From the human T2T-CHM13v2.0 reference genome, Homo sapiens, in the NCBI RefSeq assembly GCF_009914755.1, contig NC_060947.1: a stretch of 64,000 bases of DNA. One strand, given 5' to 3'. The notes beneath the pieces were generated by a model, which saw nothing but the letters and a program-made list of their open reading frames with translations, was not told where the DNA came from and made no database searches. The stretch's first letter is position 1. Every line of letters begins with the position of its first letter. Of the stretch, positions 2,142-57,122 are shown piece by piece. A program made the translations under genes and the position numbers.

Positions 2142-2227
2142 TTAAATGGCTTTTTAAAAACAATTTGCACCTATACCCTACTAACCACAATTGGCACACA
2201 AAAACAAATATATTGAGAATTTGCCTC

Positions 2228-2233
2228 TTTATT
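2228..2233 (-). terminator. RHOXF1: Polyadenylation signal of RHOXF1
   Basis: TTTATT (AATAAA on minus) about 120 nt past the stop codon. Confidence 0.75.
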
Positions 2234-2351
2234 GATAACATAAGTGCAGAGGAGATAAGGGTAGCCTGAGCGGCATGGGCAGCCCAGGTGTCAGTGGCAC
2301 CAGAAAAACCCATCTCCAAACTAGCTCCTGAAGAAGGATGGCATTCTAGGG

Positions 2352-2462
2352 CTAGTCCACGACGATGTAGACACAGTCGTCTGGGTCAGCACGTAGTTCA
2401 TTGGCGAGCATTAATTCTCTCTGATGTCGCCTACATCTGGCCCTTTTATTCTTAAACCAAAC
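2352..2462 (-). CDS. RHOXF1: RHOXF1 coding exon 3 (VWFKNKRARCRRHQRELMLANELRADPDDCVYIVVD*), homeodomain helix 3
   Basis: Acceptor ...ctgattgtag|GTTTGGTTTAAGAAT; TAG at 2354-2352; 111 nt; exons sum to 398+46+111=555 nt =184 aa + stop. Confidence 0.96.
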   Translation of the reverse strand, partial: VWFKNKRARCRRHQRELMLANELRADPDDCVYIVVD

Positions 2463-2710
2463 CTACAATCAGAGGGAAAAGGGGATTGGTTTAGTATATT
2501 GAACAGTTAATGTCGTAATAGAAAAACACAGGATGCAACTTTATATGCTATTGAGATTTTAAACTGCATCAGGAAAAGCTATTTCCTCATTGCTAAAATA
2601 CCTTAGGAAAGTTAACAACATAGCCCGTGGCCCTTCAGCTCACCCTTAGTGAGGACCAGCTTTGTGCCAAGTCCTGGAATAAGCTTATTACTTTGTATCT
2701 CTCTTCTCCA

Positions 2711-3051
<341 letters not shown>

Positions 3052-5531
3052 TAATATTCTTTAATGGTTACTTCCAGATATTGGATGCAGTTCTGGCTTA
3101 TGAGTTGTTCCAGGTCCTTGCTGTTTGTTAATTCAATGCCTGGCAACAGGGTAACAAAAGGTGTGCATCTGACAAGTGACCATCAACTATCCAGCTGCCT
3201 CCTGCTCCCTCCTCACTAGGGAGAGTTTCATCTTGTTTGTGGGAGAAGTTCGGCATGGTAAAAAGTGGGCCTAATTTCAAATCATTTTCAGGGGATTGTT
3301 TAAAAAATCCATCTTTAGTATGTAGTAAATAATAGGAAAGAGCGCACTGGAATTTTAGACAGGTTTCCTTCCAGGATGTCTAAGGGATCATTCGTCCTCT
3401 GGCAAGAGAGGCCTGGACACTGCCTTGATATTTTAGCCTGTAGCATTAAGGAAAGTTGAAACCAGCTCGACCCAAATTAACTGAAACTCTCAAAAATCTT
3501 TGCTCACCCAATAGTTTAGGGGAAAGAGGCATACCATTGTCACCAATGCCAAATCTTCGTTCTCCAATCTGCTGCACTCTCCAAACCTTCCTGGGCTCAG
3601 GACAAGGTCAGCTCACTCTGTTTTACCTACAGCTCCAGGATCCTGGACTGGAGGTGCTGTAGCCCAGTAAGGCAGGGCCCCCTAGGCCCTGCTACTCAAC
3701 CAGGAGATCTGAATCCCACCCCCTATTCCTAAGGCAGAAAGGTGGAACCAGCATTTTAGGAAGATGGTTAACATCAATGTGGGGGAAGGGTCACAAATAT
3801 GGCTCCTCCCTAAATATCTGCCAACAATTAAAAAGCAAACAGACAAAAAAAGCCTGTCAGTTAGATGTCACTATCCTCTCAGCAACCTAGTTAACGGAGT
3901 TTATATTGTATTTATTACTTTCAAAAGTTCTCAAACTGCAAATTGTAAGCTGCACAAAGGGCCTTCTTTCTCTACCTGACACGTCTTTTTCACTTTCCCA
4001 GTTAAGGATTTGCAGTATTTCTGCTGCATGAGGCCAGTCTCTAAAAGTCTAAAAGAGCTCATTTTGGGAGCTTTCAAGTGTACCACTGGTCAAATCTCTA
4101 TAAACATAACCAAAGTGTACAGTGGGTTAACTGGTATGTTCTGATACTAGGTCTGCATTCCCAATACTGGTTTCATAAACCAGTTGCATTACATCTGCAA
4201 AAGCTATGGGGAAACTATGTATTACTTTCTTGGGGGAAATTTATGCTGTATAGTTTGGAGATACATGAGAGCATTCTGTCTCTTCCCTTATTTGTATCTT
4301 GTGGCTCATATTCTTTTCAGAGCACTAAGGAGAGAACATTATGTCGACTCAGGGAGGAGAAAAACAACTCACCAAGCCTTGTTTTTCTTTTCCTCTGAGT
4401 TTGCCTTACCAGCTGGAGAAAAGTGATCCCAACCTCTTTTCAACTTCTCCAACCCGAACCAGGTGTGATTGTGAGTCCACCCTTTGCCATTAGGATGCCA
4501 GCACTCAGTAACCCGCTTTGTTAGTTTGCTTTTTTGGACAACCCACTACCAGATCGGCAGTGCATTTCCCTCACTACACTCACACATGCACTCTGCATAA
4601 AAGCTAATAATAAGGTCATCCTGATTTTTGTTTTTTCTTTTTTGGGAAAACATCACTTTGATACTATGTATGGTTTTCTTTGGTCTTAAGTGGTCATCAC
4701 TTGAATCCTATGACCTACTAATTAGTTAACACTGCTTAAAGGAATGAAAAGTATTTGAAATTAACATGGGTGTGAATCTACCCTAAAATGAGGGCCACCT
4801 CTCCAAACAAATTCCAGAAAACCCACCTCTTCAAAAAAGTACCACCAAAAAGAAATATAAATCCTTAGATGGATAGAAATTCCTCAAGAGAACAGTCACT
4901 TAAACATTTAGTAGTTTCATAATGTTGAATTTGTATAGTACATGCATAGTATGTGCAAAGCCTATTTTGACCATATTTCTCTCTAACCTTTTCACCCTTC
5001 TTGGTCAACTGAAATGAATTCAATATTACTCATTTTGTTTGCTTCATTCTTTAGACAATTTTCCAAAGCATACAAACCTTACAAACCTTCCTCAATTTCA
5101 AAATAATGTGACTATTTTAGCAATATTTTCAGGTTGACACATCAAAGTATTTTAGAAAATTAAAACTTAGGGCTGCCACTCTCTATACTGCTTTACCAAT
5201 AACTTAAAAACAAACAAAGAAGGACCAGGGGCTTGGACATATAAGCTATCTTCCCATCAGTCTCAGCTTAACTAAGTATACATTATTTAGTCATGTAATG
5301 TGTTCTGTGGGTGAATTACTCCCTCATCCCAATATTTATAAATTCACTCATTTAGCTAAGTGTTTATGCCTGGCCTTAAATAATTTAGTACACTTGAACC
5401 CTCTTATAACCCTGCTCCTCCCTGCATTAACTTGAATACTTCTAAGGTAAGACTGAACCCCACCATGACTCTACACAGAAATTGTTCCTAAAAGATACCA
5501 GCGTTAGAAGGAGTTGAATTTTATTTATTGG

Positions 5532-5692
5532 ATACATACATATATGTATAATATATAATACACATATGTGTATTATACATTATCATACATATATGTATTA
5601 TATATTACACATATATGTATAATATATAATACACATATGTATTATATATAATACATATATGTATAATATATGTGTTTCATATGTATGTATTT
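5532..5692. repeat. (TA)/(CATA)-rich microsatellite in RHOXF1 intron 2
   Basis: Directly visible low-complexity TA/CA run. Confidence 0.9.
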
Positions 5693-5980
5693 GTTTAATT
5701 TTGTATACAGATTAGGAGAAGCAGTTTTTGTTTTGTTTTTCCTTTAGGAAATCATATTCCCTAATTGGAATGGGAAAGAGGAAAGAACCATAAGCTGGAG
5801 CTTACTTCCTTTTCTACCGACAAGGAACCCAAACTTCAAAACTTATTTGTCAACATAAAAAAGACAATAATAAAAACAACAACTTTAGAACGTTCAGGAC
5901 AAAGCCTTCAAAGCCTTCAATGCCCTGAAGCAGGTTTTAGAATGGCTGTCCTCTCAAATTGCTTTTTCAAGTGTACTGAC

Positions 5981-6026
5981 CCGCACTTTGTCTTCAGTCA
6001 CACCTAAGTTTTCGGCAAGTTCCCTT
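5981..6026 (-). CDS. RHOXF1: RHOXF1 coding exon 2 (46 nt, (R)RELAENLGVTEDKVR), homeodomain helix 2
   Basis: acag|AAGGGAACTTGCC...GTGCGG|gtcagt; the 46-nt homeobox mini-exon typical of RHOX/ESX1/ARX-type genes. Confidence 0.96.
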
Positions 6027-6230
6027 CTGTGGAGAGAAGATCACACATGGTTAGTATTCAAAGTTGTGGATGAAATGAAATATATAGTATGTACTATTTA
6101 CTTCATGCTTGTTTTACAATTTATAATCTCCCCTCACACCTCCCCCAAGTATATACTTTTCTCTAATTCCCAGCTCCATGGTTGCTTTAGAAATGGTTTA
6201 CCCTCATCACGAAATTTAAGGTGACGTTAA

Positions 6231-6871
<641 letters not shown>

Positions 6872-6920
6872 CTAATGCACTATTTTAATAAATAACAATT
6901 AATGCAAAAATCTGTGATGA

Positions 6921-7498
6921 GGACCAGGCACTGTGGCTCAGGCCTGTAATCCCAGCAGTTTGGGAGGCCGAGGCAGGCAAATTGCTTGAGCCCAGGAGTT
7001 TGAGACTAGCCTGGGCAACACGGCGAAACCTTATCTCTACACACAAAAAAAATACAAAAATTAGCCAGGTGTGGTGGCCTGTGCCTGCAGTCCCAGCTAC
7101 TCAGGGGGCTGACACGGGAGGATGGCTTGAACCCAGGAAGCAAATGTTGCAGAGAGCTGAAATCGCACTGCTGCACTCCAACCTGGGCCACAGAGAGAGA
7201 CTCTGTCTCAAGACAAAACAAAAAAACCAGAAAAACAAAAAACCAACCAAACAAACAAAAAAAAACTATGATGAACAAATTATCAAAATTTTAAATAAAG
7301 GAAGGATCTAGCACTGTAGTTGCATGACAGTACCTCATTCTCCTTACCCCAATTTCAATAAAATTTTATTTATAAAAACAGACCACAGCTGGGTGTGGTG
7401 GCTCACTCCTATAATCCCAGCAACTCAGGAGGCTGAGATGGGAGGATTGCTTGGGTGACAGATCCCCCACTCAACAAAAACAACAACAACAACAAAAA
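6921..7498 (+). mobile_element. Alu (about 6921-7264) and Alu monomer fragment (about 7388-7498)
   Basis: Alu consensus similarity, A-rich tails. Confidence 0.85.
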
Positions 7499-7504
7499 CA
7501 GGCC

Positions 7505-8350
7505 ATCATCACAGGTAATAAAAGAAAAAATACATAACTTGGACTATATCAAAATTTAAAACTTCTGTATATCAAAAGATGCAATGAACAGAGTAAAAAG
7601 ACAACTCATAGAATGGAAGGAAATATTTGCAAATCACATCTGATAAGGGGTTAATATCCAGAGTGTATAAAGAACTCCTACAACCCAATAACCAAAAAAA
7701 AAGAAAGAAAGAAAGAAAAAGCCACTCAGATTTTAAAATGGGTAAAGGACTTAAAGAGATATTTCTCCAAAGAAGATATACAAGTGGCCACTAAGCACAT
7801 GAAAGGATGCACAACATCACTAATCATTAGGGAAAAGCAAATCGAAACTACAATGAAGTATCACCTCACACCCATTAGGATGGCTATGTAAAAAACCCCA
7901 GAAAATAACAAGTGTTGGTGAGGATGTGGAGAAACTGGAACCCCCATGTACTGTTGGTGTGCACCTGTATCTATAAAATGGAATATTATTTAGCCTTAAA
8001 AAGGAAGGAAATTCTAATATATGCTGCGATATGGATGAACCTTGAAGACCTTATGCTAAGTGAAATAAGTCAGTGACAAAAATGCAAATACTGTATGATT
8101 CTACTTACATGAGATACCTAGAGTAGTCAAAATCATAGAGACATAAAATAGTAGAATGGTGGTTGCCAAGGGCTGGGGAAAGGGGGAAAAGGGGAGTTGC
8201 TTAACTGGTATAGAGACTTAGCTTGGCAAGATGAGAAGAATTCTAGAGATCTATTGCACAACAATGTGAACATACTTAACACAACTGAACTCTATACTTA
8301 AAAAGTGGTTTGGACGGTAAATTTCATATTTCCGTGTATTTTACCACATC
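7505..8350 (+). mobile_element. Old L1 (L1M-type) ORF2 end/3' UTR fragment
   Basis: L1 hallmarks, e.g. GCAAATCACATCTGATAAGGGGTTAATATCCAGA, ATGGATGAACCTTGAAGAC. Confidence 0.85.
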
Positions 8351-8576
8351 TTTATAAAAGGGAGGCACGGACTAGTTTCCAGGTTTCATTCACATAAACA
8401 TTGCAATAAAACATTTACCTTGATGCCCAGGAGGTAAATATCCCCCTCCACACCAGCACAAAGGCAGGCAAGGACCCCCAGTGGCTTTTTCCTCATGATT
8501 GGGTGGGGCAAGGGAGAGAAAAAGATGCCTCGAAACGAACTTGGAGATCTCGTGGCTCCTGGAGCAGGCCACTTAC

Positions 8577-8974
8577 CTTGTGGGCACATCAGGGTATTGA
8601 GTGTGTCGGAAAACACTTTCCAGCTCCTCCACCTGCAACAGCGTGAACTTCGTGCGCCGAGTTCGTGGCTGCATGTTCTCGGGCTGCGGACCCTCCATGG
8701 CCGCCTGGGCCGGCTCCTCCGGCGGGGGCTGCGGCTGCTGCCGAGGCTCCTGGTTTCCACCGCCGCCCTCGGGGATCATGCCGCCATCGCGGTTCATGCC
8801 GTTCTCGTGGTTCACACCGCCCTCAGGGTTCATATTACCCATGAGGCCTGGAGCTCCTTGGCCAACATGGCCTTCTGCGCTTGATGCTGCCCCCAGCTGA
8901 GGTGTGGGGCTTATTTTTACCTGGTATACACTCAGGCAGTAGAACACGGTGTCGTGGACGAGCGAACGCGCCAT
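8577..8974 (-). CDS. RHOXF1: RHOXF1 coding exon 1 (MARSLVHDTVFY...RTRRTKFTLLQVEELESVFRHTQYPDVPT), Rhox homeobox family member 1 (PEPP1/OTEX)
   Basis: Translation matches the RHOXF1 N-terminus and homeodomain helix 1; Kozak GCCATGG; donor AAG|GTAAGT; CpG-rich. Confidence 0.97.
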
Positions 8975-9119
8975 GGCTGGAGCGCTGCGCCCCTGCACAA
9001 ACTCCGTGGCGTCTGCAGCTGGAGTGGGGGTTAGAGGGTGGAGCTAGTTCCTGTTCTCATGCTTGGTATTGGTTACAGTTGCAATGAGTGGGACTTGCTT
9101 ATGCGCACAAGCAAGAGAG

Positions 9120-9465
9120 GGAATGGAGAGGAGTGGGGGGATGGGAAGTTGGGGGGTGCGGGTGGGGAGTGGGGGTGTTGCAGGTGGGAGTGGGGGGTTG
9201 TGAGTGTGGGGTGGGTTGCAGGTGGGGATGGGGGTGTGGGTGGAGGGTGGGGGGTGCACAGTGAGGGTGGGGGTTGCGGGTGAGGGTAGGGGTTGTGGGT
9301 TGGGGTGGGGGTTGCCGGTGGGGGTACATGGTGGGGGTGGGGGTAGCGGGTGGAGATGGGAGGTGTGGGTGGAGGGTGCGTGGTGGGGGTAGGGGTTGTG
9401 GGTGGGGGTGAGGGGTGTGGTATGGGTCGTGGGTGGGGGTGGCAGTTGAGGGTGGAGTGGGGTGG
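9120..9465. promoter_or_regulatory. G/T-rich (GGGGT-like) low-complexity tract in the RHOXF1 proximal promoter; G-quadruplex potential
   Basis: Dozens of G3-G6 runs on the + strand immediately upstream of exon 1; CCAAT at about 9500. Confidence 0.7.
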
Positions 9466-10221
9466 CCAAAACACAGGGGCAGTGTGGAGAAGAAAAGGGC
9501 CAATAGGAGGCATATATGTATGCAACATGGGGCCCCAGCTTGCAGCTTTGCTGACTACACCCTACTCGGGCCTAGTTATTACCCTGAGGAAAGCTGATTT
9601 GGGGGCTCAGAGGGGAGGTGAGATCTCACGGTGACCATAGGACGCCTTGAGTAAAAGTTTGGAGAATATCTCATGGCCTGACCCTCCATATTTGGCAGCA
9701 TGCACAGGGCGCGGGCTATTAATTAAGCAGAAATGATTGACTGGGGGCTGCTTGTTCAGAGTTCCAGCAAAGGCACTGAAAGCAGAGCTGCCATGCTCTC
9801 TTCAGTGCTGGGATCGGGATCTTGGAGATGGGCATGCAGAGCATTCTGGGTGGTAAGATGTGCTCTGCAAGAAATCTAACGCACCCTTTGAGAAAGTCAA
9901 CACAGAATAAACACGAGGCTGAATCTGTTAGCCTGAGACTGAATATCTTTGGCTATGCAAGAGAAACCTGTACTCATGGCAAAATGGAGTGCTATAAGGA
10001 CAAGCAAAAAATAAATAAATAAATAAAATCGGGGATGGTATAGGAAGAGCACCAGTAAGGGCATACCTGCCAAAAATCTCCAATCTTGGGATGGAGATTT
10101 GGGATTTATGGATATGCAGCTTACTGGATGTGGGGCCACTTCTGCTCCACAGAGCCTTGTAACTACACAGCCTTCCTACCACTGACCCCAATAAGCCCAA
10201 TTACGAAGAAAAACCCTGAAG

Positions 10222-10415
10222 AGCCTGGTGCAGTGGCTCCTGCACTAGTCCCAGCTACTCAGGAGGCTGAGATGGGAGGATCACTTGAACCCAGGAGTTT
10301 GAGGCTGTGGTGAGCTAGAATCACATGGCAGCACTCCAGCCTGGGCAACAGACAGAGGCCCCTTTTCTTTAAAATAAATAATAAAATAAGAAATAAAATG
10401 AAAATGAAAGAAAGG
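10222..10415 (+). mobile_element. Alu monomer (FRAM/FLAM-like)
   Basis: Single-arm Alu similarity with A-rich tail. Confidence 0.75.
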
Positions 10416-11095
10416 AAAGCGCTAAGAGAGTCTGTCATGAGGAAGGGCATGGAGATGTCTTTTGAGGGTGGACAACTCATGAATCCTTAATTTTTCTAGA
10501 GATTGTGTGTGTGCTCTTAAGTGATGTTATATACTTTATTTTGTTTTTTAAAAATATTTTTAAAAATTTTATTTTTAAATGTTCTTTTAAAAACTTTCTG
10601 TATCTATTTATATCTATTGGTTATTTGAGGTTTTTTTGGCAGCATATATAAATATGCAGACCCTTTGAGTCTGTAGCCTACCAAGAGAGATAGCTCTCGT
10701 CTTCATGGTGATTCTGAGCATGGAAAGGCCCTTGCACTTGGCAGCATGACAAGGACTAAGCCACTCGCTCCATTAATTGACTGCCATCCACTGGGCTAAG
10801 TGAGATCCTTGCGTTCTATCCCTAGTGAGAGAAGAGAGAGGAAGAAGAAGAAAAATAGAAAGATAATAAGAAAATAGAAAAAGAAATGAATAAATGTACA
10901 TTGTGGGGAGCAGGAAAGGACTACCAGTAATGGGAGGCATCAGCTAGGAGCACAGATCCGAAGCATGACTCACTGTGTGTCCTAGGACACTGGATGAATC
11001 TATCTGGTTCTCAGCTTCCTCACCTATAAAATGGAGATAACAACAGTGTCTCGATCATAGGGTTTTCATGAGAGTTCAATGAGGCAAGGCATACA

Positions 11096-11638
11096 TGTAA
11101 CTGAACACAGCTCCGACTGCTCACCAGTTGCAAAGTCCAGTGAACAAGAACGACGTCTGGTAGAAAGAAAGTGGCTTTATTCCAGAGCTAGTTGAGGGGA
11201 AGTAGTACAGGCTGCCTTGAGGAAGCCACTAAAGCCTTTGGGGCAGAAGGCAGGAGCTTTGAAAGTGGGGCTTGGCGTGAATGGCATGCAGGGGAGAGGG
11301 CGATGAAGTGCAGAGTCTATGTGACTTGCTTCGGATGTCTTATCTATCAGGTGGTCTGGCTGGCACCGTCACGGGCAGAGCTAGGTTGTAAGTTGAGGCA
11401 ATCTCAATTTGCCTCCTGGTAGGAGAGAGTTCTGGAGGTTCCTGGTTTGCTTTAAGGTTCGGTCTCTGTAACTTCTAAGTAAACATGTAGTTAGATAAGC
11501 TTGCTGTGTAGGGAGTGTCTGGTGGAGAGAAGGTAAAGTTTATAATTGCATTCCCAAAGAGCTAAGTAGGAGGTGTGAGGAAAGGAAAAAGGAAAAAATA
11601 ATTCATTTGATTCTTTAAAAAAGAGGTACTTGGTTATA
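11096..11638 (-). mobile_element. Solo LTR, MER4-group ERV1, same family as the LTRs at 20921 and 29510
   Basis: Visible similarity to 20921-22213 and 29510-30462 (AAAGAAAGTGGCTTTATTCCAGAGCT; GTAAAGTTTATAATTG; GTACTTGGTTA); flanks TACA/TATA resemble a 4-bp TSD. Confidence 0.75.
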
Positions 11639-13714
11639 TATAGACTGTTTTATTCTTTTTCTTCAACTCCAAATAGTCAATTTATCAGCAAATCCTGTTG
11701 ACTCCGCCTCAGAAACACATTCCCAAACCTTTAATTTTTTTTCTCTGACATGCTTAAGATAATCTCTATCATCTTAAACCTGGGATATTGCATTAGTGTC
11801 CTGTCTCCCTGCTTTCACCTTTTTTCTCCTATAAACATTCTCCACCCAGCAGCCAGAGTGATCTGATGATGAAAATGTGAATTACACCATGGTGCCCCTG
11901 CTTATCACCTTCATACTGCTTGTTCTTGGGTTGGGTCCAGAGTAGGTACTTAATACATGGTAATGCTTATTACATTATTATTTGCTCTGGTATCTAGGAA
12001 TAAGATATATTAGGCCAAGGAAGAAAATCTGTCTGCTGAGTGAAAGACACACTCTCCTGGCACATTTCCTGGCCCAGGGCTCATACATGCAGCAACCAAC
12101 ATAGGCTTATTGATGGAAGCACATATAGGTACATAGAAACATGGTACGTGTATTGTTTTCACAAGAAGATGCTCTATCTTTATTACATGCTGCCAGAGGA
12201 GAACAATCACTCTCTCTCCCTTGTGAATAAAAAAATATGAAAGTGAGTCAAGTAGGAAATGTGAGGCTGCATGGTCATTTGTGAAATTGTATAATTAAGC
12301 ACCTCAATTAATCCTCAAAACACCTCTATGAATTAGGTATGATTGTTATCTCCATTTAAAAAATTATTAAACCAAGGCAAAATGAGAATAAACTGCTCAC
12401 CAGATTAGCCAGCTAGCAAGTAGTGAGTGAAGCCATGATTCAGATACCTAGTCTGGTTCTAGGGTCACTGCTCACATAAATCTGTTACATCAGGCCGTGA
12501 TTTGTGGCTATTTTTGCTTAGGATGAGGGTTCCATTAGGTACTTAAGGTTTTCAAGAGTGAATCAAAAATTAAAAATTAAATTATATTTAAAGTAAAACA
12601 TTTAAGTAAGTACTAGCTTTTCTGGTGCCCACATAGGGCAACAACACTCACCTAAGATGCCTATGAGTGACTGAAGGTGAGAAAACACCGGGGTACACTG
12701 TGGAAATCTGAGATGTGGAAGAAATCAAGCTGTCACAGACGTCCCAGCTAGTCTACTGCACTCCATGATTAAAACTCTTACATGTCTCTCATGCAGCATT
12801 TGATCCAAGGCTGAAAATTGATCATGAACTGATTAGTTAAGAGAAGGAGAGGGGGCCAGACTCCAACAAAAGTCAGATTTTGGTTGAAGTCAGAGAGAGG
12901 TTGTGAGATTGCCATCCCTTGACATCTTTTTAAAAGTGAATTGTTTAATCACTTTTTTTTAAGCTGATTTCTTAGCCATCTTGCAGAAATATGAGGCAGG
13001 GGCACTTATCCATTAGGTACAGTAGGTAAGGTAACTAAGCCCAATGACACCCTTAGCAGCCCATGAAAATGGTTTAGTTTCTTTCATAAAATGGTGCTGA
13101 AGATAATGATAGTTGCAAAGGAAAAAATACGGTAGACCAATATCATAGTATGTTACCAAGCATAGGGCCTATTATTGGAAGCTATTTCCAGTGCTCAGGA
13201 TATTAACATCTCCTGGAGCGTCTGCAAAACACATCTTGAAGGCAGAACCATAGTCCTCAATTTGGCCTGCCTCTTTTATTTGACAATAAAGTTTTATTTA
13301 TTTCTGAGCATAAGATTGGGATTTTATTTCTAGAAAAAGGGAGAAAAGGTGGAAGGAGGAGGAGGCAGGGAAAAGGTGGAAACTTGCCCAGGCCCATAGC
13401 AGGAGCCCAACACAGGGAACACTTAAGCTTGTGTAGAGTACTTGTAACCAGAAGCCCGGAGGTGGAGCACAGCAGAGGATGCAATGTGCCACTGTCGCGG
13501 CCAGAGCCCATGCAGTGTAAACATTAACATTCTTGGATGCACTAAGCACTGGGCTGCGGTCTACACTTGCATTCTGAGGTGGTGGAGTCATGGCCAAAAT
13601 TTTGGAGTACTTGGACTTTTCTCAAGAAGCGTTGCACTTCTTGTCCGGACCGGGGATTACCGCAGATCGCAGCCCAGAGTCTGCGGAGGCGCACCGTTTC
13701 ATCAACAGCAGGGA

Positions 13715-14914
13715 CTGAAACTTCAGCCCAGGAGAAGCCAAGATGGCACCGTTATCGCACCCTGGGAATCGAGGACCGGGAAGAACTTAATGGTCAGTGC
13801 CTGGATGGTGACAGGTGCTCCAGTGAACTCAGGCAAACTACCTTTTCCTGCGACAGCCGATTATCTTTGTGCAGCTTTCAGTTTGCGGCCCCTAACCTCC
13901 TCCAGCCCATAAACTCAGGCCTCCAGTGTTCTGATCTTTCTCTTTGCCTTTCCGCCTTTCCAGATGCGATTCCTCCCGTGATCTCAGTGATTGTATCAGG
14001 CGAAAACGAGGAGGGCAAAATACCGTCCAGATGTAAACTAGGAGCAGCCGCACCAGCAGCACCAGCAGAATGCCGTGGTAGTGCGGCAGGCCCTGGCCCC
14101 ATGGACAAAGAGAAACTCGTCAGTGGCAGTGGCCACGAACTCAGAAAGCCTGAGGACAGTCAGCAGCTCCTCTGGCTCTTCACTTTCACACTGGTGCAAC
14201 TACAGGAGCTGAAGAACATTTTTCAACTCGTTCCATACCCGGACGTGTTAGGTAAGTGGCATGCTTAGGCGGCACCGACTTTTCACGGAGCAGGGGCTGG
14301 GCTCAGGGCTTATTCTCTTTCCCCAGGCCCCTTCCAAACCTTTCTGAGCCAAAAGCTACCTAGGGGTTTCAAGGCTGCTGGGGCCTGTTTGCCCTTGGGC
14401 TTCAGGGTGGAGGCAATGCCTCCTGGACACCAAGGTAAATATTTTCAAGCAACATTTAAATGAATCAAGTGGGGAAACTTTGGCCTGATAACTAGGTTTG
14501 TATAAATAGAATTTGATTGGAACAAGAACCATGATCAGGGTGAGGAGAGTAAGGCATGGTCGTGCAAGTGGATGGGCAAATTCTGGTTTTATGTAAATAT
14601 TTGATAATTTGCTCATAATATTTTTGATTTTTCAGAGTAGTGCAAAAAGTGTTATTTTTCTGGAATCCTGAGTTTTTTTGTGCCCCCTTACATTCACTAT
14701 GGGGGAAAATCATTCCTAAAGAAAGCCTCAATCTGGATATTACAAAATAGTGTACTCGGGGAGAGGTGTTGGGAGGTAAGTATTTAAAAGCAAGCTTGAA
14801 ATGAACAACATAAATTTTGTTTCATCCACAACTCTAAATACTGAATCTTTGTGGTTTTCTCTCACCAGAAAGGGACTTGTAAGATGCATGAGCATGACTG
14901 AAACCAGTGTGCAG
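13715..14914 (+). pseudogene. Unprocessed RHOX pseudogene, RHOXF2/ESX1-like architecture: exon1 13715-13792, exon2 13964-14251, exon3 14869-14914; helix-3 exon deleted
   Basis: Exon1 aligns codon-by-codon to RHOXF2 exon1 but with CTG for ATG and a 1-nt deletion; intron1 homologous to RHOXF2 intron1; exon2 encodes FTLVQLQELKNIFQLVPYPDV (homeodomain helix 1); 46-nt exon RKGLVRCMSMTETSVQ; GT-AG sites intact. Confidence 0.9.
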
Positions 14915-16371
14915 GTCACTATACCTGAAAAAACTTATTTGGCAGGGCAGCCATTCTACAATCTGCTTCAAGAGGTAGATACCATTGCCCTAGATATTCT
15001 GAAGTTGGTGTGTTTTTGTTGCCTTTTCCAGGTTTGCGAAATAAGTTCAAACTGTGAGTTTTTGCGAATAGAAAATGGGATAAGAAAACCTCAGCTTAGG
15101 GAAATTTCCCATTATCAGAGCATACACGATTTCAAAAAAGGCCAAAGAAAGTAGAACCAAACTACTTTTCTAGTTCCTATATATTAATACAATTAAATAT
15201 GTATGTGAATAATATCAGTATGAAGTATCTAAATATGTTATATTGTATATAAATATAAATAAATAATATGCAGTATATGTGTTTGTATGTATGTGTGTAT
15301 ATATATACACACAAATACATATGTGTATATATATTAGGGAGGACATCTATGTGAAGATTATCGATAAGATGGGAATAAAAGCATTGTCTATGCCATAGAA
15401 TTGAGAAGAGGAATAAATGACAATATATGTAAGTACCTAGCACAATACCTAGTCACAGAGTAAGACCTCAGAAATATTTGTTACTATTACTCTGTAATAT
15501 ATCCTCTCACCACAGTATAACCCATGGAATATGTGACATAACAGAATAAGCCTGGTTAGGAGTCACACATTTGGTTCTTTTGGAGATACACACTGAAATA
15601 TTTACTGATGAAATGATGTGACGTCTAGATGTGCATCACAAAAATCCAGGGGGAGATCCAAGTGTGTTTGAGAATTGGTTAGGGTATTCATGAAACAAGG
15701 TTGTCTATGATAATTGTTGAAACTGGATAATGGGTACAAATAGGGTTCATCTTTACCATTCTCTCTGCTTTTGTATATGTCTGACAGTTTGCATAATAGA
15801 AAAATTGTAATAATCAGAGTTGTAAATTCAAATGTTGACAAGGCCAGACAGGTAACATAAAAGAGAGAAGCAAGCAGGGTAGGGACTGTGGCAAACTGGG
15901 AAAGAATATGTCTCTTCCAAAGGGGCAGCCAGTATTCAGCTCCAGCTTAGTGTTGCTGGCTGGCAATGTTGGGCCAGGACTGCCAGATTTTTCAGTTTTT
16001 CAAGATTGGCCACAAATTATAATGTTGATATGAAACCTTCAGTTCTTTAAATGTTGGTAACTAACTGAAATATGTTTTATTGAAAAGTATGCTGGCCATC
16101 TAAATCAGGTCTGCAGAACAGACTCAGGCTGGAGCTGCTAGTTTGTAAACTCTGCCTGAGAAGCCAATTTTAAGCAATTTTCATTCTCTGGAGCAGTAGA
16201 ATATAATTGACAGCGTTTCTAAAGCCAACAATCCAAGAATGCCATTGTGCTGTCCTGCTGTTCCTTATTGTAAGTCCCGTGCCCATATATGCTTTGCTCT
16301 CTGCCTTCCATCCCTACCTGAAGTTTCTCTAACTTTATCTTTCATTCTCTTTACTTGGTTCTGATCTTAAG

Positions 16372-32041: not shown

Positions 32042-32387
<346 letters not shown>

Positions 32388-48984: not shown

Positions 48985-50618
48985 CACCTTTGTTATAAAA
49001 AGCACCAAAGGGGGGAATGGAAATAGGAATTAAAAGAAATTAAAGAATATGTAAGCAGAAACTCAGTCGTATGTAAGAAAACCCAATTCCCCTGAGAAAG
49101 AGAAAGAGTTGGAGTCCTTTAAAAATTAACTGCCTGTTTTTCTGTGGCTAGTGAGCCTTATCTCTCCTCCTTTCCCAGGCATTGTGAAGACCCTGTTTCC
49201 CTAGCTGTGCAGCTGCAAGTTCACTAGACAGATAAACTCAAGTCATAAAACATGTTTTTCCTTGAAAACTAAGAAATGATGTAATGCATGTCTCAATTAA
49301 TTGAATAACTGTCTCTGTTTCTCACTTCTGCAATATGCTTCCCCCTGCCCCACGAAATGCTTAAAAAGTAACTTAACTCTTTGTTCAGGGCTCAGTTCTT
49401 TGGATCTTAATCTTACTGGGCCGGTGCACCTAAATAATAAATATCCTCCTGAACCCCATCAGTCTCTCTGATTCCTTATCAATCCCACTACACTATGAGA
49501 ACCTACATCTCAATGGTCAGGCATTGATCAGACATTGTGGCAATCCCCACATTTCTTGCCACAGGGCCCTGTCAACACAGCAGCCAACAAAGGTTTACTG
49601 AGTGAAGTACATATAGGTACAAAAAGACTTATAGAACCATTATTTTCACAATAAAACATCTTACCCCTGTTGCCCACTGCCAGAGAATAGCCATCATCTC
49701 TCTCCTTTCAAGGACCCTTGTAAATAAACACATACAAACTGACAGAAGCAGGAAATGTGAGGCAGCATGTTTAATCATCTCCATCTATTCGAAAACCCCA
49801 TGAGATAGTTATCATTGTTATTCCCATTTTACAGATGACAAAACTAACACAAACGGAGAGTGATCAAGTGAGATTAGCCAGCTAGCAACAGGAAGCAAAG
49901 CAAAATTTCAGATTCCAGCAGTTTAGCTCCAGGAAGAGCCAGCCTGACGAGGAGACATCTTAGTTAAAATCAGAAAGAGGCTGTTAGATCGTCATCCCTT
50001 CCCATCTCTTTGAACGTGAATTGGTCAAATATTTTCCAGCTGTTTTCTTACCCATCCTCTGGGAACATGAGGTATGATGCGTGCACTCATCCATTAGGAT
50101 CAGTCGTTGGGGTGACTGGAACCCACAGTACATGTAGGGGCCCACAAACTAGTTTAATTTCTTATATAAAATAAGGTTGATGAAAAGGGTCATTGTGCAA
50201 GCAAAAATAGAATGAGTCACTCAAACGATGGAGGATAGGTTCTATGGTTAAAACCTACTCTCTATATTCAGGACATTAACAAGTCCTGAAGTATCTACAA
50301 AACACTTCTTAAAGGAAGAATCTTAGAGCACTCAATCTGTCCTGGCTGTGATTATTTGACAATAAATAAAATGTATTTATTCCTAAACAAGAGCTCAGAA
50401 AGATATCTGTAGAAAAGGGCAGGAGTAGAGGAAAAGAGGGCTATGCAGCAGCAGGAAAGAAGGGAAATCACTGCAGGTCCACAGCACCAGCTCAGCACAG
50501 AAGGTAAGTGCGCATTTGTAATGGGTCTGTAGCCAGAGACATAGCAGAAGCTGCGCTATCCACAGTCACAACCAAAGGCAAAGGAAGGATGCCCTGCAAT
50601 TTTAGAAATCTTGGCTGC

Positions 50619-51504: not shown

Positions 51505-51860
51505 ACAACGCATGCAAGCACGCACCCCATCCTACTCCCCCTCCCACGCCCTACTCCCCCCTCCCCCACACCCTACTACACCACTTACCCCTCCCCCCCC
51601 ACACCACCAACGCGTGCTCTCCCTCATCCGGGCAAGGCCAAGCCCCTGACGCATGCGCACCTCAGCAGGCCCAACCCACAGCAAATAGCGGGAAGCAGAA
51701 AAGCAAGAGAGGAGGTCTCTAAGTGGATACACTGTTGCTGAGTCTAGACACCAGAAGAACGTTGCAGGCGGCGACTCACAGTTCTAGCACTGCCTAGGAG
51801 AGCGTGGTGGCCCCAGCTCAGAATCTGCAGAAGTGCACAGCTCCATCCACACCACTCAGG
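51505..51860 (+). promoter_or_regulatory. RHOXF2: RHOXF2 proximal promoter/5' UTR: C-rich CCCTACTCCCC repeats, NRF1-like GACGCATGCGCA
   Basis: Position directly upstream of the ATG; CpG retention; CGCATGCGCA at about 51650. Confidence 0.7.
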
Positions 51861-51862
51861 GT

Positions 51863-51941
51863 ATGGAGCCTCCGGACCAGTGTAGCCAGTATATGACCAG
51901 CTTGCTCAGCCCTGCAGTCGACGACGAGAAAGAACTACAGG
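51863..51941 (+). CDS. RHOXF2: RHOXF2 coding exon 1 (MEPPDQCSQYMTSLLSPAVDDEKELQ)
   Basis: Matches the RHOXF2 N-terminus; donor G|GTCAGT. Confidence 0.95.
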
Positions 51942-52126
51942 GTCAGTACCTTGATGGGACACATGCTTTTGCGAACTCAGGAAACCAAGGTTCTCTGGGA
52001 GAGGCGAGTAGACTGGATGATACCCCTGCACTACCACTGCTCTCAGAGTGTAGCCCCTCACCACCTCCTTCCAACACCCTCAGGACCAATGCCTTGATCT
52101 TTCTCTTGGGGTTTCTACTTTTCCAG

Positions 52127-52538
52127 ATATGAATGCTATGGTGCTGTCGCTTACTGAAGAGGTCAAAGAGGAGGAAGAGGATGCACAGCCTGAGCCTGAG
52201 CAAGGCACAGCAGCAGGAGAAAAGTTAAAGTCGGCAGGAGCCCAAGGCGGAGAAGAAAAAGATGGCGGCGGAGAAGAAAAAGATGGCGGCGGCGCCGGAG
52301 TTCCTGGCCACCTATGGGAAGGAGACCTCGAGGGCACCAGCGGCAGCGATGGCAACGTTGAGGACAGCGACCAGAGCGAGAAGGAACCTGGGCAGCAGTA
52401 TTCGCGCCCACAGGGCGCCGTCGGGGGGCTGGAGCCTGGCAACGCGCAGCAGCCCAACGTCCACGCCTTCACCCCATTGCAGCTGCAGGAGCTGGAGCGC
52501 ATTTTCCAACGCGAGCAGTTCCCCAGTGAGTTCCTGCG
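52127..52538 (+). CDS. RHOXF2: RHOXF2 coding exon 2 (DMNAMVLS...FTPLQLQELERIFQREQFPSEFL)
   Basis: ttccag| acceptor, CG|GTAAGC donor; homeodomain helix 1; WEGDLEG/ELERIF variant and position relative to RHOXF1 fit RHOXF2 rather than RHOXF2B (from memory). Confidence 0.95.
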
Positions 52539-52962
52539 GTAAGCCCATTGCTCTGGTTGGCGCGCGGTTTGCAGGGAGGCGGCGTTTGGCTTTCCCGCAG
52601 TCCCTCTCCTACCCTCTCCCCTCCTGAACCAAAACCCATCTGGGGCCTGGTGTTGCTGCCGTCCCCTCCCCGCAGACCCCTGGCACCTAGTGGGTTCTGT
52701 AGTGGGGCTATGCCTATTAGGCATCATGCAGAATTTAAATGAACCAAGTTGGGCAACTTTGGGCTGAGGTCAGTTATGATAAATAACTCCTATCCCAGGC
52801 GAGGCAGAAATAAAGATGAGGAGATTAAGGTTCTGTACAGCAAGTGCAGGGTCGCATTCTGACCTTATTTAAAATTCTGAGAAGTCCGTCGTTCGTCTGG
52901 GTTTCCTTTGGTGTTAATTTTTCTAAGTTTCAAATAGTAAGTTAGAATGTCATTTATATTGA

Positions 52963-53341
<379 letters not shown>

Positions 53342-53469
53342 TGAGGCTCAGCTGGGTGTTACAGAACAGCCTACTGGGTGTGGGGAGTTGGTAGAATAAA
53401 AAAATTAAACACAAGAATGAAACGACACCCACAACTCCAAATGCTGAACACGTGTGGTTTCTTCCATAG

Positions 53470-53515
53470 AAGGAGGCTGGCAAGAAGCATGAATGTGACT
53501 GAACTCGCAGTGCAG
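53470..53515 (+). CDS. RHOXF2: RHOXF2 coding exon 3 (46 nt, (R)RRLARSMNVTELAVQ)
   Basis: catag|AAGGAGG...GTGCAG|gtcagt. Confidence 0.96.
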
Positions 53516-56500: not shown

Positions 56501-56569
56501 GTGTTTTTTTCCATGATGAAATTAAATGCTCAGTATACTAAACCTGTTTCTTTTTTCCTCTGATTGAAG

Positions 56570-56899
56570 ATTTGGTTTGAGAATAGAAGAGCCAAATGGA
56601 GGAGACATCAGAGGGCATTAATGGCAAGAAACATGCTGCCCTTCATGGCAGTGGGCCAGCCTGTCATGGTAACCGCAGCTGAGGCCATAACGGCACCCTT
56701 GTTCATCAGCGGGATGAGAGATGATTACTTCTGGGACCACAGCCATTCCAGCAGCCTGTGTTTCCCCATGCCACCCTTTCCTCCTCCGTCCTTGCCCCTT
56801 CCACTCATGCTTCTTCCACCTATGCCACCCGCTGGCCAGGCTGAATTTGGCCCATTCCCTTTTGTTATCGTGCCTTCTTTCACATTCCCCAATGTCTAA
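56570..56899 (+). CDS. RHOXF2: RHOXF2 coding exon 4 (IWFENRRAKWRRHQR...proline-rich tail...FPNV*)
   Basis: ctgattgaag| acceptor; exons sum to 79+412+46+330=867 nt =288 aa + stop. Confidence 0.96.
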   Translation: MWFENRRAKWRRHQRALMARNMLPFMAVGQPVMVTAAEAITAPLFISGMRDDYFWDHSHSSSLCFPMPPFPPPSLPLPLMLLPPMPPAGQAEFGPFPFVIVPSFTFPNV

Positions 56900-57116
56900 G
56901 GGATAGCCTCTGTGCCACTTTTTGCCAGAGTGTCTTTGAGCCAGATTCATATTTTGCATAGCACCCCATCAAAAGTAGTTCATCAAATGTCTATTAAACG
57001 TTTTAAAGAAAAGTACATCATTGACCCATTTTTAGGGCACTTGTAAAAATGTTTCTATAAATATGTGAAGGGTATGTACATTTGTTTTGTGTGTCACATG
57101 GGGTCAGTAAGTTCTC

Positions 57117-57122
57117 AATAAA
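57117..57122 (+). terminator. RHOXF2: RHOXF2 polyadenylation signal (weaker ATTAAA at 56993)
   Basis: AATAAA about 220 nt after the stop. Confidence 0.7.

What the first reader, a model, noticed from the sequence alone, without database searches (positions are those of the whole stretch)
13715..14914. A third, decayed RHOX homeobox gene between RHOXF1 and RHOXF2
Seen: CTG AAA CTT CAG CCC AGG AGA AGC CAA GAT GGC ACC G-T TAT...GAA CTT AAT G|gtcagt aligns with RHOXF2 exon 1 (ATG GAG CCT...AGC CAG TAT ATG ACC AGC...GAA CTA CAG G|gtcagt), 78 vs 79 nt. Intron 1 ends CTGATCTTTCTCTTTG...TTTCCAG|AT as in RHOXF2. Exon 2 encodes homeodomain helix 1 but is 4 nt short at the donor (GAC GTG TTA G|gtaagtggc vs RHOXF1 GAT GTG CCC ACA AG|gtaagtggc), so splicing to the intact 46-nt exon gives ERDL*. 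Its YRTLGIEDREELND resembles the ESX1 exon-1 end as I remember it. Inference: an ancient RHOX paralogue, possibly orthologous to a gene still coding in other mammals. I do not know whether it is annotated as a pseudogene.
Basis: partly seen in the sequence, partly recalled or inferred. Interest (0 to 1): 0.8.

Follow-up and report, generated by a model that had tools for sequence, protein, structure and literature searches.

The report
Decayed ESX1/RHOX homeobox gene relic
Between the human genes RHOXF1 and RHOXF2 lies the wreck of an old, separate member of the ESX1/RHOX homeobox family that has lost its start codon, its reading frame and its last exon, and whose second exon now serves as an exon of the non-coding RNA RHOXF1-AS1.

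Summary
Window 13715-14914 holds exons 1-3 of an unprocessed ESX1/RHOX-type homeobox gene, with introns. Homology to RHOXF2 is collinear from 12061 to 16286 (BLASTN E 1e-12 to 1e-105), and also extends to RHOXF1, ESX1 and the three RHOXF1P loci.

Lesions:
- ATG replaced by CTG at 13715.
- A 1-nt gap in exon 1.
- A 4-nt gap just before the exon 2 donor, so that splicing to the 46-nt exon gives ...PYPDVL-ERDL-stop.
- New here: the stretch matching RHOXF2 53868-59038, which includes exon 4 (recognition helix, C-terminus, 3'UTR), is reduced to 111 bp.

The relic is 57-73% identical to every paralogue. In trees it sits on its own long branch, so it is a fifth old lineage beside RHOXF1, RHOXF2/2B, the RHOXF1P1-3 clade and ESX1. 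It is not a copy of any of them.

It is not RHOXF1P1-3, which all lie more than 90 kb upstream. I found no paper that mentions it. Its exon 2 is exactly the RHOXF1-AS1 exon 13964-14251.

The chimpanzee and snub-nosed monkey orthologues are predicted as 'uncharacterized proteins', and their amino-acid divergence matches neutral drift. No intact orthologue was found.

Verdict: a real, ordinary but apparently undescribed pseudogene, a new member of a known kind.

The parts
12061..13640 (+). Upstream block that belongs to the ancestral duplicated unit. It is shared with RHOXF2, the RHOXF1P loci and ESX1.
   Evidence: BLASTN: 12061-12463 and 12877-13452 match RHOXF2 49548-50537 (E 4e-35 and 2e-57). 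12300-13128 matches the P loci (E to 8e-83). 13198-13643 matches ESX1 upstream (E 6e-30). The own-genome search hits RHOX loci and ESX1 upstream; beyond them come a ~70-bp piece (window ~12294-12366) and two short matches near 13006-13091 that occur at dispersed places.
13660..13714 (+). Relic 5'UTR, conserved CAGAGTCTGCGGAGGCGCAC...ATC.AC. It lies inside a CpG-retaining patch and inside the RefSeq 'silencer' 13644-13825.
   Evidence: Six-locus alignment. CpG observed/expected is 0.80 in 13600-13800, against 0.24 for the whole window. The silencer is from the hub table.
13715..13792 (+). Relic of coding exon 1 (78 nt). CTG stands in place of the start ATG, there is a 1-nt gap between 13750 and 13751, and the donor is G|gtcagt.
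   Evidence: The frame that reaches the donor is open from 13546 but contains no ATG.
13793..13963 (+). Intron 1 (171 nt). Its polypyrimidine tract and acceptor are conserved with RHOXF2 and ESX1.
   Evidence: intron 1 acceptor alignment; BLASTN 13670-14012 against RHOXF2 51814-52175, E 3e-27.
13964..14251 (+). Relic of exon 2 (288 nt, 95 open codons). Its coordinates are identical to an annotated exon of the lncRNA RHOXF1-AS1 (NR_131238.1). Its 3' end (14146-14247) encodes the degraded N-terminal arm and helix 1 of the homeodomain. A 4-nt gap lies between 14249 and 14250.
   Evidence: Hub table for the lncRNA exon; splice sites ccag|AT and TTAG|gtaagtgg; tblastn; Pfam partial match; alignment.
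14252..14868 (+). Intron 2, homologous to the corresponding introns of RHOXF1, RHOXF2, ESX1 and the P loci.
   Evidence: BLASTN blocks 14147-14607 and 14673-15277 (RHOXF2) and 14147-14479, 14496-14630 and 14644-15336 (RHOXF1).
14869..14914 (+). The 46-nt middle homeobox exon. It is ungapped and reads KGLVRCMSMTETSVQ in its native frame, but is out of frame after the exon 2 deletion. The donor is weakened to gtcact.
   Evidence: The surrounding 332 bp are 73% identical to ESX1 and 67-68% to the other paralogues.
14915..15277 (+). Remnant of the 5' part of intron 3.
   Evidence: BLASTN against RHOXF2 53516-53868 (E 4e-36), RHOXF1 5980-5549 and ESX1.
15278..15388 (+). Deletion junction. An AT-rich, low-complexity 111 bp stands where RHOXF2 has 5.2 kb (53868-59038), which includes exon 4.
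   Evidence: No helix-3-like sequence was found by tblastn or by the motif W[FY].N.R anywhere in 14900-51000.
15389..16286 (+). Downstream flank homologous to the sequence 3' of RHOXF2. It contains an old dispersed repeat at about 15574-15815.
   Evidence: BLASTN: 15389-15518 matches 59038-59163 (75% identical), and 15593-16286 matches 60105-60789 (70% identical, E 1e-105).

Best explanation
This is the unprocessed (intron-containing) relic of a separate, old member of the ESX1/RHOX group of X-linked paired-like homeobox genes. It arose when a whole gene unit was duplicated: about 1.7 kb of upstream sequence, four exons and the 3' flank.

It died through four lesions (shown):
- loss of the start codon (ATG to CTG);
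- a 1-nt frameshift in exon 1;
- a 4-nt deletion at the end of exon 2, which puts the 46-nt exon out of frame;
- deletion of the segment carrying exon 4, so that helix 3, the DNA-recognition helix, no longer exists.

It therefore cannot make a homeodomain protein.

What survives is RNA-level and perhaps regulatory use. The acceptor and donor of exon 2 are intact, and the exon is spliced into the lncRNA RHOXF1-AS1 (shown, by annotation). In the chimpanzee gene model the relic's own exon 1 is joined to exon 2 and then to the same Alu-derived exon that human RHOXF1-AS1 uses (shown).

The 5'UTR/exon 1 patch keeps its CpGs. It overlaps a RefSeq 'silencer' and lies about 250 bp from the start of an alternative RHOXF1 transcript on the other strand. 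I infer from this that the old promoter is still unmethylated in the germ line and acts as a divergent promoter or regulatory element. This step is inferred, not shown.
For: Homology and anatomy:
- Collinear BLASTN to RHOXF2 over 12061-16286 (E from 3e-12 to 1e-105), to RHOXF1 over 14147-15336 (E to 2e-64), and to ESX1 over 13088-15151 (E to 7e-52).
- Exon-by-exon alignments show conserved splice sites.

Lesions:
- Start loss, frameshifts and premature stop.
- Exon 4 loss: homology stops at RHOXF2 53868 and resumes at 59038 across only 111 bp of relic.
- In the whole window, tblastn finds exon-4-type sequence at only 2 places, both in the annotated genes, and none in 14900-51000.

Age and separateness:
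- Identity to every paralogue is 0.57-0.73 in four blocks, against 0.81-0.90 within the RHOXF1P clade.
- The ML trees are star-like, with a relic branch of 0.22-0.25.

Not a named pseudogene:
- The RHOXF1P3 peptide HEDTGNPGL (passages of PMC8062694) is absent from the window and present once, in L009 at about -116 kb.
- RHOXF1P1 is at -96 to -91 kb (hub table).
- The RefSeq table for the window lists no pseudogene.
- Table 4 of the review PMC10531175 lists F1P3, F1P1, F1P2, F1-AS1, F2B, F1 and F2.

Neutral drift: exon 2 differs at 2 of 95 residues from chimpanzee, and at 11 of 95 plus one gap from the monkey. Simulated neutral expectation is 2.5 at 1.2% and 10-13 at 5-6.5% nucleotide divergence (the divergence values are general knowledge, not measured here).

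The start loss and the 4-nt deletion are shared by the chimpanzee and monkey sequences.

RNA use: the hub table gives the RHOXF1-AS1 exon as 13964-14251. Chimpanzee P0004 maps to 13484-13720, 13726-14250 and 32106-32216.

CpG observed/expected is 0.80 (13600-13800) and 0.62 (exon 2), against 0.24 for the window.
Against: - Exon 2 is still open for 95 codons in human, chimpanzee and monkey. Under neutral drift at 0.22 substitutions per site only about 14% of simulations stay stop-free. This hints at a late death or some constraint.
- Gene predictors call the ape and monkey orthologues protein-coding.
- The sister pseudogene RHOXF1P3 is reported to make a protein, XCP (passages of PMC13099652).
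- The promoter/regulatory role rests only on CpG retention in about 200-600 bp, on position, and on a RefSeq label whose experiment I did not see.
- The size of the exon 4 deletion is measured against RHOXF2, whose intron 3 may have grown since the duplication.
- GENCODE, HGNC tables and one of the three supplementary files of PMC4584094 could not be read, so an existing annotation cannot be excluded.
Confidence: 0.85

Rival explanations
1. It is still a coding gene for a short, homeodomain-less protein. By analogy, XCP is made from RHOXF1P3 exons 1-2. Such a protein would be translated from transcripts that contain exon 2.
For: - Exon 2 is open for 95 codons in human, chimpanzee and Rhinopithecus.
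- Chimpanzee LOC473763 X1 (234 aa) and Rhinopithecus LOC115898731 X2 (111 aa) are predicted proteins that include it.
- Passages of PMC13099652 and PMC8062694 report a translated product of the related pseudogene RHOXF1P3.
Against: - In human, the frame that enters exon 2 has no ATG between the upstream stop at 13543 and the donor.
- The upstream ATG at 13484 used in the chimpanzee model is in another frame in human.
- Amino-acid divergence equals the neutral expectation.
- RefSeq curates the human transcript as non-coding (hub table).
- The peptide reported for RHOXF1P3 is not encoded here.
Confidence: 0.07
2. It is a recent partial copy of RHOXF2, RHOXF1 or a RHOXF1P gene (a young segmental duplication), and so is simply another 'RHOXF1P'.
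For: The region is known for recent duplication: RHOXF2 and RHOXF2B are about 99% identical (passages of PMC2211742). The three RHOXF1P loci are 81-90% identical to one another.
Against: - Identity to every paralogue is only 57-73%.
- The terminal branch is 0.22-0.25 substitutions per site, as long as those of ESX1, RHOXF1 and RHOXF2.
- The own-genome search finds a single copy.
Confidence: 0.02
3. The conserved features are kept because the DNA is mainly a regulatory module for RHOXF1 (a divergent promoter or silencer plus a lncRNA exon). On this view the homeobox ancestry is incidental to a present function that is under selection.
For: - CpG observed/expected is 0.80 and 0.62 in 13600-14251, against 0.24 for the window.
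- A RefSeq silencer lies at 13644-13825.
- An alternative RHOXF1 exon ends at 13405 on the minus strand, and LINC01402 starts at 12812 (hub table).
- The exon 2 splice sites are intact and in use (hub table).
Against: - No measure of sequence constraint beyond CpG retention was possible.
- Identity of the upstream block to its paralogues (0.58-0.67) is no higher than that of the introns.
- No expression, methylation or perturbation data were seen.
Confidence: 0.3

Closest known systems
RHOXF2 / RHOXF2B (human Rhox homeobox family member 2)
   Same: - Four-exon layout with a short coding exon 1 (79 against 78 nt) ending G|gtcagt.
- A similar small intron 1 with the same acceptor motif.
- Homeobox split by two introns around a 46-nt exon.
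- No basic N-terminal arm: relic QQLLWLFTFTLVQLQELKNIF against RHOXF2 QQPNVHAFTPLQLQELERIF.
- Collinear flanks upstream and downstream.
   Different: - Only 58-67% nucleotide identity.
- No start codon, two frameshifts, and no exon 4.
- Not part of the 99%-identical inverted RHOXF2/RHOXF2B duplication.
ESX1 (Xq22.2)
   Same: - The best match around the 46-nt exon (73% over 318 aligned columns).
- Long upstream homology (13088-13643).
- Exon 1 peptide ends alike: 8 of 14 residues of ...YRTLGIEDREELN match ESX1 ...YRSLAVGEDIEEVN (my count).
   Different: - It lies 16 Mb away.
- ESX1 keeps the basic arm (RKRRRRTAF), helix 3 and a proline-rich tail.
- The trees do not place the relic with ESX1 with any consistency.
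RHOXF1P1, RHOXF1P3 and a third locus (presumably RHOXF1P2) at -91 to -116 kb
   Same: Also unprocessed RHOX-type pseudogenes at Xq24, with the exon 1/intron 1 layout and shared upstream block.
   Different: - They form a young clade (81-90% identical to each other) that is only 57-68% identical to the relic.
- They carry the motif HLKELDSIF, where the relic has QLQELKNIF.
- They have HGNC names, and RHOXF1P3 is reported as translated (XCP). The relic has neither.
RHOXF1-AS1 (lncRNA, NR_131238.1)
   Same: Its exon 13964-14251 is the relic's exon 2, base for base at both splice sites (hub table).
   Different: - The lncRNA starts about 84 kb upstream of that exon and continues into an Alu-derived exon at 32110-32231. 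It is a chimeric transcript, not the old gene.
- In the passages and listings I saw, no paper says that this exon derives from a homeobox gene.

Membership tests
ESX1/RHOX-type PRD-class homeobox genes | Homeobox interrupted by two introns at fixed positions, with a 46-nt middle exon | tested here: met
   The exon 2 donor aligns with those of RHOXF1, RHOXF2, ESX1 and three P loci. The middle exon is exactly 46 nt and ungapped. That this layout defines the family is stated in passages of PMC10531175 and PMC2211742.
ESX1/RHOX-type PRD-class homeobox genes | Location in the X-linked cluster (Xq24) | tested here: met
   It lies between RHOXF1 (2211-13405, minus strand) and RHOXF2 (51725-58742, plus strand) (hub table). 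The paralogous flanks are collinear.
ESX1/RHOX-type PRD-class homeobox genes | A complete 60-residue homeodomain (Pfam PF00046 above threshold, with helix 3 WF.N.R) | tested here: not met
   Pfam scores 13.1 bits against a cut-off of 22.9 and matches profile positions 6-26 of 57 only. No helix 3 is present in 14900-51000. The relic is therefore a descendant of the family, not a functional member.
Unprocessed (duplicated) pseudogene | Homology to a functional gene including its introns, plus disabling lesions | tested here: met
   Intron homology. Start loss, a 1-nt and a 4-nt frameshift, a premature stop and exon 4 loss.
Unprocessed (duplicated) pseudogene | Neutral evolution of the former coding sequence | tested here: inconclusive
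   Amino-acid differences from chimpanzee (2 of 95) and monkey (11 of 95) fit a neutral simulation. However, the nucleotide divergences were assumed, not measured, and no dN/dS could be computed.
RHOXF1P1-3 clade | High identity to the other RHOXF1P loci and position upstream of RHOXF2B | tested here: not met
   57-68% identity to them, against 81-90% among them. Their positions are -91 to -116 kb, against +13.7 kb for the relic (hub table).
Translated pseudogene / microprotein gene (XCP-like) | An AUG-initiated ORF through exons 1-2, with peptide evidence | tested here: not met
   There is no in-frame ATG in human exon 1. Peptide evidence is not testable with these tools.

The most novel reading that the evidence does not exclude
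The relic is the human remnant of a RHOX lineage that is still functional elsewhere, for instance the counterpart of a rodent Rhox subcluster that has no recognised human orthologue. Alternatively, in apes it still yields a homeodomain-less nuclear polypeptide, comparable to XCP from RHOXF1P3. In either case its CpG-rich former promoter would be a live control element of the RHOXF1/RHOXF1-AS1 pair.
Probability: 0.1. Interest if true: 0.55.

Novelty: new member of a known kind. Interest (0 to 1): 0.35.

Why it matters
- It raises the number of old ESX1/RHOX lineages traceable in the human genome to five, and the number of RHOX-type loci at Xq24 to seven. Published surveys count three genes, or three genes plus three pseudogenes (passages of PMC2211742, PMC3141429, PMC4584094 and PMC10531175).
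- This bears on how large the cluster was in the ancestor of placental mammals, before rodents expanded it and primates lost members.
- It also explains where an exon of RHOXF1-AS1 comes from. Many papers use this lncRNA as a cancer marker (listing). Its second exon is a dead homeobox exon, so the 'antisense RNA' is in part a transcribed pseudogene.
- Apart from that it is an ordinary pseudogene.

Tried and rejected
- Is it RHOXF1P3 (XCP)? The published 9-mer HEDTGNPGL is not encoded in any frame of the window. It is encoded in L009 at about -116 kb. Rejected.
- Is it RHOXF1P1 or RHOXF1P2? RHOXF1P1 is at -96 to -91 kb (hub table). A third RHOXF1P-like locus sits at about -108 kb. No RHOXF1P row appears in the RefSeq table of the window. 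Rejected by inference; RHOXF1P2's coordinates were never seen directly.
- Search for exon 4. tblastn with the exon 4 peptides of RHOXF1, RHOXF2 and ESX1, and the motif W[FY].N.R, over 14900-51000 on both strands gave nothing better than E 2.1. BLASTN with the 3' halves of the three genes found only intron 3, the 3' flank and Alu-type repeats.
- Resolving which paralogue is closest. Two concatenated alignments (518 and 1534 columns) gave conflicting internal branches (86-94% support) of length 0.03-0.05. Left unresolved. RHOXF1 was left out of the second set because it has no exon 1 or upstream homology, and RHOXF2B was left out of both as a near-duplicate of RHOXF2.
- Search for intact orthologues.
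  - The two relic-exon-2 searches against the 5.8-billion-protein set returned 2 and 4 proteins, all primate-like or unnamed.
  - The HMMER search of 1.84 billion representatives returned 11 proteins at E <= 0.001. Of these, only P0007 is a distant relative whose best human match is the relic (113 bits against 50.8 for the next locus).
  - I did not inspect two of the 11 (P0008 and P0009, long multi-stretch proteins).
  - A third 5.8-billion-protein search with P0007 as query returned 3 proteins, all unnamed.
  - No intact homeodomain was found in this lineage.
- The review PMC7768892 is not held.
- One of three supplementary files of PMC4584094 could not be searched. It may list the six human loci.
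- Names such as RHOXF1P4, RHOXF3, RHOXF2P, ESX1P and RHOXF4 occur in no held paper. LOC473763 and LOC115898731 occur in none of the 5 papers listed, a search that required two of its five terms, so a paper holding one LOC name alone would not have been found.
Full report
**What is there**

The window is T2T-CHM13 chrX:118482001-118546000 (hub table, confirmed).

- Positions 13715-13792 are 78 nt and end G|gtcagt. RHOXF2's first coding exon is 79 nt and ends the same way.
- A 171-nt intron follows. It ends in the same pyrimidine tract and TTTCCAG|AT acceptor as RHOXF2 intron 1.
- Exon 2 (13964-14251, 288 nt) is open for 95 codons and ends ...FTFTLVQLQELKNIFQLVPYPDVL.
- After a 617-nt intron comes a 46-nt exon, 14869-14914.

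**Is it more than chance?**

Yes.

- tblastn with the annotated RHOXF1 protein matches 14146-14247 (E 1.8e-4, 41% over 34 residues). RHOXF2 residues 138-159 match at 50%.
- Stronger evidence is that BLASTN alignments run collinearly through exons and introns:
  - RHOXF2: 13670-14012, 14147-14607 and 14673-15277 (E 3e-27, 5e-13 and 7e-57);
  - RHOXF1: 14147-15336 (E to 3e-64);
  - ESX1, whose locus I fetched from the same genome: 13088-15151 (E to 1e-51).
- Pfam sees only the first third of a homeodomain: profile positions 6-26 of 57, at 13.1 bits against a cut-off of 22.9.

**The lesions**

A six-locus alignment of exon 1 puts the ATG of RHOXF2, ESX1 and RHOXF1P3 opposite CTG at 13715-13717. 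It also places a single 1-nt gap between 13750 and 13751. The frame that reaches the exon 1 donor is open back to 13546 but holds no ATG.

At the end of exon 2 the relic lacks 4 nt present in all six paralogues, directly before the conserved donor G|gtaagtgg. As a result the ungapped 46-nt exon is read out of frame, giving ...PYPDVL-ERDL-stop.

- Homology to RHOXF2 stops at 15277 (RHOXF2 53868).
- It resumes at 15389 (RHOXF2 59038) and continues to 16286 (RHOXF2 60789; 70% identity, E 1e-105).
- So 5.2 kb of RHOXF2, including exon 4 at 56570-58742, corresponds to 111 AT-rich bases in the relic.
- No helix-3-like sequence exists anywhere in 14900-51000.
- In the whole window, exon-4-type matches occur at only 2 places, both inside the annotated genes.
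- Part of the downstream flank (about 15574-15815) is an old dispersed repeat. The match to RHOXF2 spans 700 bp and is collinear, so the inference stands.

**How old is it, and what is it related to?**

Searching the whole human genome with 13500-15300 gave 15 matches.

- Besides the relic itself, eight fall in six other Xq24 loci:
  - RHOXF1, RHOXF2 and RHOXF2B;
  - the RHOXF1P1 position given by the hub;
  - two further loci, at about -108 kb and -115 kb.
- One falls upstream of ESX1.
- Five are short repeat-like hits on autosomes.

In four alignment blocks the relic is 57-73% identical to every paralogue. The three RHOXF1P-type loci are 81-90% identical to one another.

Maximum-likelihood trees on 518 and 1534 columns are star-like.

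- Terminal branches measure 0.18-0.34 substitutions per site; the relic's is 0.22-0.25.
- Internal branches measure 0.02-0.05 (the deep ones 0.03-0.05).
- The two data sets give different groupings.

I conclude that the relic is a fifth old lineage beside RHOXF1, RHOXF2/2B, the RHOXF1P clade and ESX1. Its closest relative cannot be resolved from human paralogues alone. A branch of that length on the human X suggests an origin around the early radiation of placental mammals. That is an inference from general substitution rates, not a measurement. It agrees with the date of about 105 million years proposed for the family in passages of PMC10531175.

The shared unit includes at least 1.4 kb upstream of exon 1. 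This block matches the RHOX loci and ESX1 upstream; beyond them come a ~70-bp piece (window ~12294-12366) and two short matches near 13006-13091 that occur at dispersed places.

**Is it already known?**

- RHOXF1P3 is described as encoding peptides and a 132-residue protein, XCP (passages of PMC8062694 and PMC13099652). Its published 9-mer is not encoded in the window but is encoded in L009 at about -116 kb.
- RHOXF1P1 lies at -96 to -91 kb (hub table).
- The third RHOXF1P-like locus, at about -108 kb, is presumably RHOXF1P2. I did not see its coordinates.
- Published surveys count as follows:
  - three human Rhox genes (PMC2211742 and PMC3141429, passages);
  - six loci (PMC4584094, section 6 read in full);
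  - 'three genes and three pseudogenes' (PMC10531175, passages). Its table lists F1P3, F1P1, F1P2, F1-AS1, F2B, F1 and F2.
- None of these mentions a relic between RHOXF1 and RHOXF2.
- Searches for plausible names found nothing. The two LOC names occur in none of the 5 papers listed, which required two of its five terms.
- RefSeq annotates the spot only as an exon of RHOXF1-AS1 and as a 'silencer' (13644-13825).
- GENCODE, HGNC and one supplementary file of PMC4584094 could not be consulted, so 'undescribed' is provisional.

**Relatives in other species**

Protein searches with exon 2 found:

- a chimpanzee model (LOC473763 isoform X1, 234 aa, 93 of 95 residues identical);
- a snub-nosed monkey model (LOC115898731 isoform X2, 111 aa, 83 of 95 identical);
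- several unnamed near-identical ORFs;
- one unnamed distant ORF (P0007/P0015, 44 of 96 aligned columns identical).

P0007's best human match is the relic, at 113 bits against 50.8 for the next locus. It is therefore probably an orthologue from a distant mammal. Its helix 1 also looks degraded (...FTLLQVQEQESILQQIPYSGML).

The chimpanzee and monkey sequences share CTG at the old start and the shortened exon 2 end. Both lesions therefore predate the split of apes and Old World monkeys.

Amino-acid differences are 2 of 95 for chimpanzee and 11 of 95 plus one gap for the monkey. A neutral simulation gives 2.5 at 1.2% nucleotide divergence and 10-13 at 5-6.5%. The divergence values are assumed from general knowledge. 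So there is no sign of protein-level constraint. No intact orthologue was found, but genomes of other mammals could not be searched.

**What it does now**

It cannot encode a DNA-binding homeodomain. Its exon 2 has intact splice sites (ccag|AT ... TTAG|gtaagtgg) and is exactly the RHOXF1-AS1 exon 13964-14251 (hub table).

The chimpanzee model joins the relic's own exon 1 to exon 2, and then to the Alu-derived exon that matches window 32106-32216 (97% identity). That is the same junction human RHOXF1-AS1 uses.

CpG observed/expected is 0.80 in 13600-13800 and 0.62 in exon 2, against 0.24 for the window. RHOXF2's 5' end scores 0.48 and RHOXF1's 0.51. This patch overlaps the RefSeq silencer. It lies about 250 bp from the minus-strand start (13405) of an alternative RHOXF1 transcript.

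I infer that the relic's promoter is still unmethylated in the germ line and works as a divergent promoter or regulatory element. No expression, methylation or perturbation data were available, so this is the weakest link.

**Rivals**

- *A recent copy of a known paralogue.* Excluded by the identities and branch lengths.
- *A truncated coding gene of the XCP type.* Not excluded, but unlikely. The human sequence has no in-frame ATG, divergence looks neutral, and the transcript is curated as non-coding. Against my own reading, exon 2 has stayed stop-free, which only about 14% of neutral simulations do at 0.22 substitutions per site.

**Verdict**

This is a real, old, unprocessed ESX1/RHOX pseudogene. 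It appears to be unnamed, and part of it is reused as a lncRNA exon. It is a new member of a known kind, of modest interest for homeobox-cluster evolution and for the annotation of RHOXF1-AS1.

Noticed in passing
L009 (chrX:118362001-118372000, + strand), L010 (118370001-118380000, - strand), L011 (118384001-118394000, - strand): The three 'RHOXF1 pseudogene' loci are not copies of RHOXF1. They are 55-67% identical to RHOXF1 in the two blocks where RHOXF1 is truly homologous (A and B), about the same as to RHOXF2, ESX1 and the relic. They also carry the RHOXF2/ESX1-type exon 1 and upstream block that RHOXF1 lacks. They form their own old lineage, which triplicated recently (81-90% identity). 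Several unnamed proteins (P0010-P0013) match this lineage best and have an intact-looking helix 1.
   Followed up: partly
window 13484-13792: In chimpanzee a 1-nt difference near 13721-13725 joins an upstream ATG (human 13484) to the exon 1/exon 2 frame. This gives the predicted 234-aa LOC473763 protein. In human the two frames are separate, and the ATG frame stops five codons into exon 2.
   Followed up: partly
window 13600-14251: This is a CpG-retaining patch, with observed/expected 0.80 and 0.62 against 0.24 for the window. That is higher than at the annotated 5' ends of RHOXF1 (0.51) and RHOXF2 (0.48). It overlaps the RefSeq silencer 13644-13825.
   Followed up: partly
window 32110-32231: The RHOXF1-AS1 exon that follows the relic's exon 2 lies in an Alu-type repeat. 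The same peptide-like translation matches about ten Alu copies in the window. Its splice sites are ag|ATGGAG ... CTACAG|gtgcgt.
   Followed up: no
window 9527-9616 and 12760-12879 (+ strand): An unnamed monkey-like predicted protein (P0006, 317 aa) starts with segments matching these two places and then runs into the relic's exon 1 and exon 2. This suggests further plus-strand exons upstream of the relic in some primates.
   Followed up: no
window 15574-15815: An old dispersed repeat with dozens of 69-93% identical matches on many chromosomes. It lies inside the 3' flank that the relic shares with RHOXF2, so it probably predates the duplication.
   Followed up: no
window 8577-9025 versus 13715-13963: RHOXF1 has no detectable counterpart of the exon 1/intron 1/upstream block shared by the relic, RHOXF2, ESX1 and the RHOXF1P loci. 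Its homology begins only inside the homeobox-bearing exon (relic 14147 onward).
   Followed up: partly
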